In this document: in pieces, positions 21,801 to 24,800 of the stretch
How the letters are laid out: each line of letters starts with the position of its first letter
How positions within the stretch are numbered: position 1 is the stretch's first letter
Source of the DNA: Escherichia coli
GTDB lineage: Bacteria; Pseudomonadota; Gammaproteobacteria; Enterobacterales; Enterobacteriaceae
Strand: one strand, 5' to 3'
DNA: 64,000 nucleotides
Assembly: GCF_003334305.1 (NCBI RefSeq)
Contig: NZ_QOWS01000002.1
Made by a program: the position numbers

Positions 21801-24800
21801 GTCTTCGGCAGGGATCTCGAAATAGGTTGATTGTTCGGTTGCAAGGACAAAAGTACGAAAAAATTGTAGCGCTCTGTCATCATAAGTTAGCTGAAATTTT
21901 GATGTGCCTTTGTCGAATACGGCCTGTAAAACGTCATCTCGCTCGTGCAGGCGCAAATCAAATAATTCCATTCCCGCTTTGCCAAAACGGCGAGCAGGCG
22001 CGTAATCGCACAGCAGCTCAACAATATTATAGTGCCGTGGATCCTGGCATATAGCCCGATATATCATTTTAACCTGTTCTTCCGGACCTTCCAGAAGCTG
22101 GAAAAAATGAGAACCATTAAACAGTAAGATCCCTGTTACGTCAGACTGCATGTTCCTGCGATTTGCTATCGAAACCATTTCTTCGATTTTTTTGACAGGT
22201 TCGTCGTCACGTATATGGCTACGATAAATAAGGGTGGTAAGCATTAACAATCCAGGGTAATGGGTGAGGCGAGAGTAAGACGGTAACAGACATATCTTCT
22301 TGTGTCTTTCTTTTAATACCAAAACATAACCGTTTCTTTACATTGATAAAAAATGGAAAAAGTTGAACACTAGTTGGCGAAAAATCTTGTATAGATTGTC
22401 AGTTAAATGATGCAATATGTTTTATCATAACACATTGTTTTATATGCATTAGCACTAATTGCAAAAAATTAATTTATCATTCTGTACACATATTTCGTAC
22501 AAGTTTGCTATTGTTACCTCACTTAACATTGATTAACATTTTTAACAGAGGCGTAGCATGCATCAAAATTCAGTGACTTTAGATTCTGCGGGAGCAATCA
22601 CTCGTTACTTTGCAAAAGCTAACTTGCCTACTCAGCAGGAAACTCTCGGGGAAATTGTGACTGAGATTTTGAAAGATGGACGTAATCTGAGTCGAAAGTC
22701 GCTTTGTGCCAAACTTCTTTGCCGACTGGAACACGCGACTGGGGAAGAGGAACAGAAACATTATAATGCACTAATTGGGTTGCTTTTTGAATAATGCAAC
22801 AGCCTGATTATTTAACAGGTTAGCTATGAAGTCGTTATGAAGACATCTGATAATGAACGTATAAAATATGAAATTACTGGCCAGGCGGTGATCCAGATAC
22901 TGCGCATGAAGATAAATTTTTCATTGCAGACTCTTATTAAGCAATTACTCGTAATGAAATCGGCTGAGGAAGATGCTTTCCGACGCGATTTAATTGACAG
23001 CATAATTCGTGATTTTAGCAATAGTGATTCAGGAGGGCCAAACCGAAGAACAGCGACAGCTGACAATAAAAGTATGTTCAATGGTAAGAAAATAAACAGA
23101 ATACATTAAAATTTCATAAGTAAGATGAGAGGTTACCATGCTTGAAGATACTACAATTCATAATGCAATAACTGATAAAGCGTTAGCAAGTTACTTTCGC
23201 AGTTCGGGTAATTTGTTAGAAGAAGAGTCAGCAGTGTTAGGGCAGGCTGTCACCAATTTAATGCTTTCAGGCGATAATGTTAATAATAAAAATATTATCT
23301 TAAGTCTGATACACTCCCTGGAAACAACAAGTGATATTCTCAAAGCTGATGTGATTAGAAAAACACTGGAAATCGTGTTGCGATACACAGCTGATGATAT
23401 GTAACTTCTAATTATTAAGTATAAGTTTATAGAAAACTCATTCATCTTATTTTTGTCTGTCGCTTTAGACTATACACAGCATAATTTTATTGGGTTAATA
23501 TTTCTACGAGGCTGACATGAATAATTCAATCCCAGAGAGATTTATTTTTCAATGTGCTTTGTTTAAAAATCTCGAGAGGGAGGTGTTCATGACGCATGGG
23601 TATGTTGATAGTCATATTATTGATCAGGCTTTACGCTTGCGTTTAAAAGATGAAACCAGTGTGATTCTTTCTGATCTCTATCTGCAAATATTGCAGTACA
23701 TTGAAATGCATAAGACTACACTAACGGATATCATTATTAATGACAGGGAATCCGTGCTCTCTTAGAACTTGAGTAAGGTTTTAGAATAAACATCAGCTGT
23801 ATCACCATGCTGATGCAAAGTGAGCATTTCAGGCGTTATGCTTTCTTATTATGTCCGCAATATCAGGTGTCAAGAATGGAGAGTTCTCGCTCTCCATTCT
23901 TGACGCCTGATATCCCGCCTAACTTATTTTGTACTGCCTACATTATGCTCAATAATTAATGGGTTAGATCAAGATGGAGAAAATTTTATCTTCGGCGTGG
24001 ATATTTCTTATGCTCTCTACCATGCTCTCTGTAGATGCCAGCGCGAGCGAATGAATGGCATTTTCATGTATTAAACCCTTTGGCCGGGACAAGCAAATGC
24101 GCAATACACTCATACCCATCCTCGTTGCGATATGCTTGTTTATTACCGGTGTCGCTATTTTGAACATCCAGCTCTGGTATTCCGCAAAAGCAGAGTACCT
24201 GGCGGGAGCGAGATATGCCGCCAACAATATCAATCATATACTTGAAGAAGCGTCACAAGCGACTCAAACAGCGGTTAACATTGCCGGGAAGGAATGCAAC
24301 CTCGAGGAGCAATATCAGCTTGGCACTGAAGCAGCTCTGAAACCTCACCTGCGCACAATCATCATTCTCAAACAGGGAATAGTCTGGTGTACATCCCTGC
24401 CTGGGAATCGGGTCCTGTTGTCTCGTATTCCTGTTTTCCCGGACAGTAATTTACTGTTGGCTCCAGCAATCGACACCGTTAATAGATTACCTATCCTGCT
24501 CTATCAGAACCAATTTGCAGATACGCGCATTTTGGTTACGATAAGTGATCAACATATTCGCGGGGCGCTTAATGTACCCTTGAAAGGGGTAAGGTATGTA
24601 TTACGCGTGGCGGATGACATTATTGGACCAACGGGTGATGTGATGACGCTTAATGGACATTATCCCTATACCGAGAAGGTTCACTCCACAAAATATCATT
24701 TCACTATTATCTTTAACCCGCCGCCACTCTTTAGCTTCTACAGACTTATCGATAAAGGCTTTGGAATTTTAATATTTATTCTGTTAATCGCCTGCGCCGC

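What the first reader, a model, noticed from the sequence alone, without database searches (positions are those of the whole stretch)
22483..22501. Candidate operator palindrome in the bluF-ycgZ divergent promoter region
TGTACAcatatttcGTACA is an inverted repeat (TGTAC-N9-GTACA) in the 314-bp region between divergent bluF and ycgZ, about 55 nt upstream of the ycgZ start. MerR-type repressors such as BluR bind dyad sites in the -35/-10 spacer, so this is a plausible BluR operator. I do not remember the published operator sequence.
Basis: inference. Interest (0 to 1): 0.25.

Follow-up and report, generated by a model that had tools for sequence, protein, structure and literature searches.

The report
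Known BluR operator at ycgZ promoter

Summary
The sequence TGTACACATATTTCGTACA is at window 22483-22501, in the 313-bp bluF/ycgZ divergent region of an E. coli chromosome. As a bare 5-bp inverted repeat it is not above chance: the AT-rich spacer holds 9 such repeats, against 12 ± 5 in shuffles.

It is nevertheless the published BluR operator. Tschowri, Lindenberg and Hengge (2012, PMC3509220) footprinted BluR on a "GTACA…GTACA / TGTAC…GTACA" motif overlapping the -35 hexamer and the spacer of the ycgZ promoter. Their mutagenic primers (C-39A/T-38G/G-37A and G-24A/C-21A) map onto window 22482-22484 and 22497/22500, inside the two arms. Those mutations abolished BluR binding and derepressed ycgZ as fully as a bluR knockout.

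New here: in eight other enterobacterial lineages (identified from the names of their YcgZ proteins) the site reads TGTACA-N7-TGTACA. The spacing is fixed and the spacer sequence varies. The left arm is absent in Paramixta, the one lineage with no bluR gene next to bluF.

In passing I found a second conserved dyad, TGTACA-N12-14-TGTACA, that brackets the -10 of the bluR promoter. I found no report of it; it may be an autoregulatory or MlrA-type site.

The parts
22483..22501 (.). BluR operator dyad TGTACACATATTTCGTACA (positions -38 to -20 of the ycgZ promoter)
   Evidence: Sequence. Published footprint, EMSA and lacZ data in PMC3509220. Published mutated bases map inside it. Arms are conserved and the spacer varies across genera.
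22483..22488 (.). Left half-site TGTACA (-38 to -33), overlapping the -35 hexamer
   Evidence: Published mutations T-38G and G-37A fall at 22483 and 22484. It is TGTACA in 7 of 9 lineages compared.
22496..22501 (.). Right half-site cGTACA (-25 to -20), in the promoter spacer
   Evidence: Published mutations G-24A and C-21A fall at 22497 and 22500. The GTACA core is kept in all 9 lineages, and the full hexamer is TGTACA in 7 of them.
22485..22490 (+). Inferred -35 hexamer TACACA of the ycgZ promoter
   Evidence: Placed 18 bp upstream of the -10, the spacing stated in PMC3509220. Coordinates computed. The figure showing the boxed hexamers was not readable, so the exact box is my inference.
22506..22514 (+). 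Extended -10 TGcTATTGT (TG at -15/-14, C at -13, TATTGT at -12 to -7)
   Evidence: Position computed relative to +1 = 22521. PMC6900184 states that the promoter has an extended -10 and sigma-38 features.
22521..22521 (+). ycgZ-ymgABC transcription start (+1)
   Evidence: Derived from the numbering of the published mutations. It is consistent with the reported 5' end '36 nt upstream of the start codon' and with the marbox centre at -62.
22452..22466 (+). MarA marbox GCACTAATTGCAAAA, forward orientation, centred at -62
   Evidence: It is the only match to the marbox consensus with up to 1 mismatch in the window. PMC6900184 reports MarA binding 62 bp upstream of the promoter.
22387..22395 (+). 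TTGTATAGA, the RcdA-box-like sequence at the distal RcdA footprint
   Evidence: Quoted verbatim in the Fig. 5 legend of PMC3535384 and located. Other genera carry TTGTACAA at the corresponding distance.
22558..22794 (+). ycgZ, first gene of the BluR-repressed ycgZ-ymgA-ariR-ymgC operon
21033..22244 (-). bluF (ycgF), the BLUF-EAL blue-light sensor that releases BluR from the operator
   Evidence: Function from PMC3509220.
20097..20828 (-). bluR (ycgE), the MerR-family repressor that binds the dyad
   Evidence: Orthologues carry Pfam MerR, MlrA_helical and MlrA_C.
20884..20909 (.). Second dyad, TGTACA-N14-TGTACA, bracketing the -10 of the bluR promoter. It is not part of the given finding but probably belongs to the same circuit.
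   Evidence: A pair with N12-N13 spacing is kept at the same distance from the bluR start codon in 6 of the 7 other bluR-bearing lineages. No binding data exist.

Best explanation
[quoted passage not shown] One half-site lies on the -35 hexamer and one in the spacer. BluR bends the DNA and keeps RNA polymerase off the promoter. In blue light, and mainly at low temperature, the BLUF-EAL protein BluF binds BluR on both its DNA-binding and C-terminal domains and removes it from the DNA. The small proteins YcgZ, YmgA and AriR are then made and act on the Rcs phosphorelay to lower curli production and raise colanic acid.

Shown by published experiment: binding, the position of the site, loss of binding and of repression on mutating either arm, and BluF-dependent release. 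Inferred: dimer stoichiometry, steric exclusion of RNA polymerase as the mode of repression, and the exact -35 box.
For: 1. The sequence and locus are identical to the studied K-12 locus apart from one base, at 22518.
2. [quoted passage not shown] These are the only two GTAC motifs upstream of ycgZ.
3. The paper's EMSA fragment (158 bp) and footprint fragment (176 bp) map to 22444-22601 and 22389-22564, and both contain the dyad.
4. The named mutations map onto 22482-22484 and 22497/22500 and give one consistent +1 at 22521. They abolished or reduced binding and derepressed ycgZ::lacZ to the bluR::cat level.
5. The independent marbox position, -62, agrees with that +1.
6. Conservation within E. 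coli: the 51-bp core promoter is 100% identical in 4152 of 4882 records, and the rest are 95-99% identical. In five alleles that differ at about 6% of upstream positions, the dyad is invariant.
7. Conservation beyond E. coli: six of eight other lineages carry TGTACA-N7-(T/g)GTACA with identical spacing and different spacer sequences. C. rodentium has one substitution in the five-base left arm. Paramixta, which has no bluR next to bluF, lacks the left arm.
Against: I found nothing that contradicts the assignment. The caveats are these:
- I could read the text, legends and primer table of PMC3509220 but not its figures, so I do not know the exact limits of the protected region.
- The primer text for G-24A/C-21A carries a one-base discrepancy in the stored supplement. 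That mapping therefore rests on the mutation names plus the matching bases.
- The site departs from canonical MerR operators. It is centred near -29 rather than mid-spacer, and the spacer is 18 bp rather than 19-20 bp.
- A second regulator, RcdA, also footprints in this spacer and may overlap the dyad.
- The Paramixta observation is a single case.
- The genus assignments of the comparison loci rest on the names sources give the YcgZ proteins.
Confidence: 0.97

Rival explanations
1. The same DNA is also, or instead, a binding site of the TetR-family regulator RcdA (YbjK). Its box is TTGTnnACA and its best site is TTGTGTACAttTGTACACAA. On this reading the dyad is a composite site shared by two regulators.
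For: RcdA genomic SELEX recovered the ycgF-ycgZ spacer. DNase I footprinting gave a distal band at TTGTATAGA (22387-22395) and a 36-nt 'promoter-proximal' band with boxes 'in tandem' (PMC3535384). The SELEX insert begins at 22387 and runs towards ycgZ. Downstream of it, the one-mismatch RcdA-box matches cluster on the BluR left arm, at 22480-22488, 22482-22490 and 22483-22491. The best RcdA site itself contains TGTACA twice.
Against: The protected sequence appears only in a figure I could not read. All matches in the spacer carry a mismatch, and one-mismatch matches to a 7-base pattern are common. RcdA was reported to affect ycgF (bluF) mRNA, not ycgZ. The BluR data fully account for ycgZ repression, since the arm mutants equal the bluR knockout.
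Confidence: 0.4
2. The functional unit is a tandem direct repeat (GTACA-N8-GTACA) bound head-to-tail, not a symmetric dyad.
For: The authors themselves note both readings. In E. coli the right hexamer is cGTACA, so the direct repeat GTACA/GTACA is as good as the inverted one.
Against: In 7 of 9 lineages each half-site is the full palindromic hexamer TGTACA, for which direct and inverted readings are identical. MerR-family proteins are symmetric dimers (family knowledge). The paralogue MlrA uses an inverted pair.
Confidence: 0.1
3. The paralogue MlrA, rather than or in addition to BluR, acts physiologically at this site.
For: MlrA and BluR differ at only four residues of the helix-turn-helix, and both recognise GTACA. 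BluR cross-binds the MlrA site at csgD.
Against: The half-site spacing is N7 here and N12 at the MlrA box. The bluR knockout alone fully derepresses ycgZ. I found no report of MlrA binding here.
Confidence: 0.07
4. It is a chance inverted repeat in AT-rich DNA with no function.
For: Five-bp inverted repeats are as frequent in this spacer as in shuffled sequence.
Against: Published footprint, EMSA and reporter mutagenesis, plus conservation of arms and spacing across genera with a variable spacer.
Confidence: 0.01

Closest known systems
BluR (YcgE) binding site in the E. coli K-12 ycgZ promoter (Tschowri, Lindenberg and Hengge 2012, Mol Microbiol 85:893; PMC3509220)
   Same: It is the same site. 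The 19 bp are identical, the flanking genes are the same, and the published mutated bases (-39/-38/-37 and -24/-21) fall on 22482-22484 and 22497/22500.
   Different: Nothing in the operator differs. The window strain differs from K-12 MG1655 by one base in the 313-bp spacer, C instead of T at 22518 (position -4).
MlrA box in the csgD promoter, AAAGTTGTACA(12N)TGCACAATTTT (Ogasawara et al. 2010, as quoted in PMC3509220)
   Same: Both use (T)GTACA half-sites and paralogous MerR-like regulators (49% identity). BluR binds the csgD site weakly.
   Different: The hexamers are separated by N7 here (13 bp centre to centre) and by N12 there (18 bp). This site overlaps the core promoter and mediates repression. 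From my own knowledge, not checked here, the MlrA box lies far upstream and mediates activation. The AAAAT/ATTTT outer flanks are absent here.
Canonical MerR-family operators (MerR, CueR, ZntR, SoxR; Brown et al. 2003)
   Same: A dyad inside the target promoter, with the regulator gene encoded in the same cluster. DNA bending on binding is indicated by DNase I hypersensitive sites.
   Different: The canonical sites are centred in a 19-20-bp spacer, and the regulator switches from repressor to activator by untwisting the DNA when a ligand binds. Here the dyad is centred near -29 and covers the -35 hexamer, and the spacer is 18 bp. BluR only represses, and it is removed by a protein antagonist (BluF) rather than switched by a ligand.
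CarA-CarS of Myxococcus xanthus (a MerR-like repressor displaced by an antirepressor in a light response)
   Same: A MerR-like repressor is released from its operator by an acidic protein that competes with DNA. The authors of PMC3509220 draw this analogy.
   Different: CarS is an SH3-like protein unrelated to BLUF-EAL proteins, and the operators are unrelated in sequence. I did not test this here.
RcdA box TTGTnnACA (Shimada et al. 2012, PMC3535384)
   Same: It shares the TGTACA core. RcdA footprints within this same intergenic spacer.
   Different: RcdA belongs to a different regulator family (TetR). Only one-mismatch matches overlap the dyad, and the overlap of the footprints is unverified.

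Membership tests
Published BluR operator of the ycgZ promoter | GTACA…GTACA repeat overlapping a TGTAC…GTACA palindrome inside the fragment that was footprinted | tested here: met
   The footprint primers map to 22389-22564. The only two GTAC motifs upstream of ycgZ are at 22484 and 22497. Text of PMC3509220.
Published BluR operator of the ycgZ promoter | Bases whose mutation abolishes BluR binding and repression (C-39, T-38, G-37, G-24, C-21) lie in the element | tested here: met
   They map to 22482, 22483, 22484, 22497 and 22500, with the expected wild-type bases and one consistent +1 at 22521.
Published BluR operator of the ycgZ promoter | [quoted passage not shown] | tested here: met
   The arms lie at -38 to -34 and -24 to -20. 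The -35 hexamer lies at -36 to -31 and the -10 at -12 to -7, with the stated 18-bp spacer.
Published BluR operator of the ycgZ promoter | Physical binding of BluR | not testable with these tools
   Taken from published DNase I footprint and EMSA data.
Canonical MerR-family operator | Dyad-symmetric site within the regulated promoter | tested here: met
Canonical MerR-family operator | Promoter spacer of 19-20 bp with the dyad centred in it | tested here: not met
   The spacer is 18 bp. The dyad centre is at 22492, position -29, about 8 bp upstream of mid-spacer.
Canonical MerR-family operator | Cognate MerR-family regulator encoded nearby | tested here: met
   bluR lies at 20097-20828 and is annotated as repressor BluR. 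Orthologues hit Pfam MerR, MerR_1, MlrA_helical and MlrA_C.
Canonical MerR-family operator | The same site mediates ligand-dependent activation by DNA distortion | not testable with these tools
   PMC3509220 reports repression only.
MlrA box | TGTACA-type half-sites | tested here: met
   TGTACA and cGTACA.
MlrA box | 12-bp separation of the hexamers, with AAAAT/ATTTT outer flanks | tested here: not met
   The separation is N7, conserved as N7 in every lineage that has the dyad. The flanks are CATTC and AGTTT.
RcdA box | Match to TTGTnnACA | tested here: inconclusive
   There are three overlapping one-mismatch matches at 22480-22491 and no perfect match in the spacer. The footprint sequence was not readable.

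The most novel reading that the evidence does not exclude
The operator is one of two conserved TGTACA dyads in the bluR-bluF-ycgZ cluster, and the two have different, individually fixed geometries.

- N7 at the ycgZ promoter (the known BluR operator).
- N12-14 at the bluR promoter, where the two hexamers bracket the -10 hexamer (about -27 to -22 and -7 to -2 in E. coli).

I found no report of the second dyad. It could be a lower-affinity autoregulatory BluR operator, which would fit the published toxicity of excess BluR. It could instead be an entry point for the paralogue MlrA, whose csgD site has N12 spacing. Either would close a feedback or cross-talk loop in the blue-light and curli network.
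Probability: 0.45. Interest if true: 0.35.

Novelty: already known. Interest (0 to 1): 0.1.

Why it matters
For the finding itself there is little new. It re-identifies, from sequence alone, an operator defined by footprinting and mutagenesis in 2012. It is part of a well-described pathway: blue light acts through BluF to inactivate BluR, which allows YcgZ, YmgA and AriR to act on Rcs and curli.

The comparative result adds modest support and a cleaner consensus. The site reads TGTACA-N7-TGTACA with strictly conserved spacing across several enterobacterial genera. That consensus could be used to search for further BluR targets.

The only part that could lead to new biology is the conserved second dyad in the bluR promoter. 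It suggests an untested autoregulatory or MlrA-linked input.

Tried and rejected
- The generic promoter scan found only a weak sigma-70-like match at 22542-22569, overlapping the start codon, and missed the real sigma-S-type promoter. I did not use it.
- Testing the repeat as a generic inverted repeat gave no enrichment. Relaxing the pattern to two mismatches gave chance-level counts. Sequence statistics alone therefore cannot support the site.
- Tschowri et al. 2009 (PMC2648647) is not held. I could not check whether bluR autoregulation was tested there.
- Searches for BluR/MlrA site or regulon papers and reads of the genomic SELEX, TF-library, OmpF-cascade and SrsR papers gave no other BluR site. 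They gave only an SrsR SELEX peak in the bluR-bluF spacer.
- The RcdA paper's text does not give the sequence of its 36-nt footprint. The overlap with the dyad stays unresolved.
- An Rfam scan of the whole window found nothing in this region.
- I considered a collection-wide scan for TTGTACA-N7-TGTACAA. I rejected it because about a thousand chance matches would be expected in 298 Gb.

Full report
**Observation.** Window 22483-22501 reads TGTACACATATTTCGTACA. It lies in the 313-bp region (22245-22557) between bluF on the minus strand (annotated start at 22244) and ycgZ on the plus strand (ATG at 22558). Upstream of bluF lies bluR (20097-20828, minus strand), and downstream of ycgZ lie ymgA, ariR, ymgC and pdeG. 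The spacer is 100% identical to some E. coli chromosomes and 99.7% identical to K-12 MG1655. It is present in 4917 of 5426 complete E. coli genomes. The minor corrections are 313 bp rather than 314, and a distance to the ATG of 57 nt from the 3' end and 66 nt from the centre.

**Is it more than chance?** Not as a bare inverted repeat.
- The spacer is 31% G+C and holds nine perfect 5-bp inverted repeats with spacers of 0-20. Dinucleotide-preserving shuffles give 12.2 ± 4.6. A 5-N9-5 repeat occurs in 45% of shuffles.
- The exact pattern is unique in the 64 kb against 0.02 expected, but that pattern was chosen after the fact.
- With two mismatches allowed, the count is exactly at expectation.

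Sequence statistics alone could not have justified the choice.

**What it is.** Tschowri, Lindenberg and Hengge (2012; PMC3509220) determined the BluR site in the ycgZ promoter by DNase I footprinting with tag-free BluR.
[quoted passage not shown] - Their footprint fragment (176 bp) and EMSA fragment (158 bp) map to 22389-22564 and 22444-22601. The only GTAC motifs in the 330 bp upstream of ycgZ are the two in this dyad.
- Their supplementary primer table names the mutations C-39A/T-38G(/G-37A) and G-24A/C-21A. These correspond to C22482, T22483, G22484, G22497 and C22500.
- Both sets give +1 = 22521. That agrees with the reported 5' end about 36 nt upstream of the start codon.
- It also agrees with the MarA marbox, which Kettles et al. 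2019 (PMC6900184) place 62 bp upstream of the start site. The only marbox-like match in the window, 22452-22466, is centred at -62.
- The mutations reduced or abolished BluR binding in EMSA. [quoted passage not shown]

**Anatomy.** All positions are relative to +1 = 22521.

| Element | Window | Position |
|---|---|---|
| Left half-site TGTACA | 22483-22488 | -38 to -33 |
| Right half-site cGTACA | 22496-22501 | -25 to -20 |
| -35 hexamer TACACA (inferred) | 22485-22490 | -36 to -31 |
| Extended -10 TGcTATTGT | 22506-22514 | -15 to -7 |

The extended -10 carries the C(-13) typical of sigma-S promoters. The -35 box is placed using the stated 18-bp spacer. I could not read the figure, so that box is my inference. 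The centres of the half-sites are 13 bp apart, and the dyad centre is near -29. That is about 8 bp upstream of where classical MerR operators sit. The authors use this position to explain why BluR only represses.

**Mechanism.**
- Shown in the literature: BluR binds the two half-sites and represses the ycgZ-ymgABC operon. In blue light BluF binds BluR and releases it from the DNA. The operon products then act through the Rcs system on curli and colanic acid.
- Inferred: BluR binds as a symmetric dimer, and repression works by occluding the -35 hexamer and spacer from RNA polymerase.

**New comparative evidence within E. coli.**
- Five alleles that differ at about 6% of positions in the upstream part of the spacer are invariant from 22474 to the ATG, except at position 22518.
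- The 51-bp core promoter is 100% identical in 4152 of 4882 records, and 95-99% identical in the rest.
- One variant I inspected has its change at 22503, outside the arms. Another carries an IS1A element ending 5 bp upstream of an intact dyad.

**New comparative evidence beyond E. coli.** I retrieved loci for eight YcgZ homologues of 65-85% identity. By the names sources give those proteins, they come from Citrobacter, an unnamed Enterobacteriaceae group, C. rodentium, Scandinavium, Atlantibacter, Phytobacter, Paramixta and Dryocola.
- Seven keep the bluR-bluF | ycgZ arrangement.
- Anchoring the sequences on the right half-site gives TGTACA-N7-(T/g)GTACA in six of the eight, always with N7, while the seven spacer bases differ from genus to genus.
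- C. rodentium has TATACG as its left hexamer, which is one change in the five-base arm.
- Paramixta, the only locus without bluR next to bluF, keeps the right hexamer but has AACAAA in place of the left one. This is a single case, so it is only suggestive.

This is a clear phylogenetic footprint. It shows that the consensus half-site is the palindromic hexamer TGTACA, and that the E. coli right arm (cGTACA) is a slightly degenerate copy.

**Other proteins at the same DNA.** The TetR-family regulator RcdA was selected on this spacer by genomic SELEX. It footprints at TTGTATAGA (22387-22395) and on a 36-nt "promoter-proximal" stretch with tandem RcdA boxes (TTGTnnACA) (PMC3535384). The one-mismatch RcdA-box matches downstream of 22395 cluster on the BluR left arm, and the best RcdA site contains TGTACA twice. 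RcdA may therefore share this DNA with BluR. The protected sequence is printed only in a figure I could not read, so I rate this at 0.4. MarA binds just upstream, at -62.

**Comparison with known systems.**
- It is the published BluR operator, and all defining features I could test are met.
- It works like a MerR-family operator in that it is a promoter-embedded dyad with its regulator gene nearby. It fails the canonical geometry, because the spacer is 18 bp and the dyad is off-centre. It differs in logic as well: it mediates repression only, and BluR is released by a protein antagonist, as in CarA/CarS.
- It shares the GTACA core with the MlrA box at csgD but not that box's N12 spacing or its flanks.

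**Noticed in passing.**
- The bluR promoter contains three of the eleven TGTACA hexamers in the whole 64 kb (20904-20909, 20884-20889, 20862-20867).
- The first two form TGTACA-N14-TGTACA. Given the reported bluR start site 54 nt upstream of the GTG, they lie at about -27 to -22 and -7 to -2, on either side of the -10 hexamer TATATT.
- Six of the seven other bluR-bearing lineages have a pair with N13 (N12 in Dryocola) at the same distance from the bluR start codon. The surrounding sequence is otherwise diverged. Atlantibacter keeps one hexamer plus TATACA.
- The region is invariant among the E. coli alleles compared.
- No paper in the searchable library mentions this dyad or bluR autoregulation. 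The 2009 paper that might have tested it is not held.
- Its spacing resembles the MlrA box (N12) rather than the ycgZ operator (N7). Both BluR autorepression and MlrA input are therefore plausible, and I could not distinguish between them.

**Verdict.** The feature is already known and experimentally proven, so interest is low (0.1). The comparative consensus and the second dyad are small additions. The second dyad is the only lead with some novelty.

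Noticed in passing
window 20884-20909 (with a third hexamer at 20862-20867); also L005 2311-2335, L006 2286-2310, L007 2347-2371, L008 2286-2310, L010 2248-2272, L012 2246-2269: The bluR promoter carries TGTACA-N14-TGTACA bracketing its -10 hexamer, at about -27 to -22 and -7 to -2. A pair with N12-N13 spacing sits at the same distance from the bluR start codon in 6 of the 7 other bluR-bearing lineages, and the E. coli pair is invariant among the alleles compared. I found no report of it. It may be a BluR autoregulatory or MlrA-type site.
   Followed up: partly
window 22387-22395; other genera at -170 to -196 from the ycgZ ATG (L005, L006, L007, L008, L009, L012): Six of the eight other lineages carry a GTACA-containing octamer about 170-196 bp upstream of ycgZ. 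It is a full TGTACA hexamer in five of them and AGTACA in L006. E. coli has TTGTATAG there, which is exactly the sequence reported at the distal RcdA footprint.
   Followed up: partly
L011 (Paramixta manurensis CP054212.1), locus 2157-4246: bluF and ycgZ-ymgA-ariR are present, but a 66-aa ORF lies where bluR would be. The left half of the ycgZ operator and the bluR-type dyad are both absent, and there are only 2 TGTACA hexamers in 8.2 kb. This is consistent with the operator decaying after loss of the repressor, but it is one case.
   Followed up: partly
L014 (E. coli OkiPb01684, NZ_AP042519.1), locus about 329-405, equivalent to window about 22478: An IS1A element ends about 5 bp upstream of the intact BluR operator. 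It replaces the marbox, the UP-element and everything upstream, so this strain's ycgZ promoter keeps BluR control but has lost the MarA site.
   Followed up: partly
window 22515-22535 compared with L007, L009, L010 and L012: In several other genera a better -10-like hexamer (TATAAC or TATACT) lies about 8 bp further downstream of the right half-site than the E. coli TATTGT. The operator may therefore sit in a different register relative to the promoter in those species. No start-site data are available.
   Followed up: no
window 22518: This is the only difference from K-12 MG1655 in the 313-bp spacer: C here and T in K-12, at position -4 of the ycgZ promoter.
   Followed up: no
window 22245-22557 (hits in E. 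coli genomes): Twelve of the 4933 matches to this chromosomal spacer lie on records classed as plasmids. I did not inspect them.
   Followed up: no
window 37415-37493 (+): A full-length match to the Rfam sRNA family C0299 (RF00119, 112.5 bits). It is the only Rfam hit in the window.
   Followed up: no
window 20829-21032: The bluR-bluF spacer is also a reported genomic SELEX peak for the LysR-type regulator SrsR (YgfI), with a 9/11 match to its box (PMC9181523).
   Followed up: no
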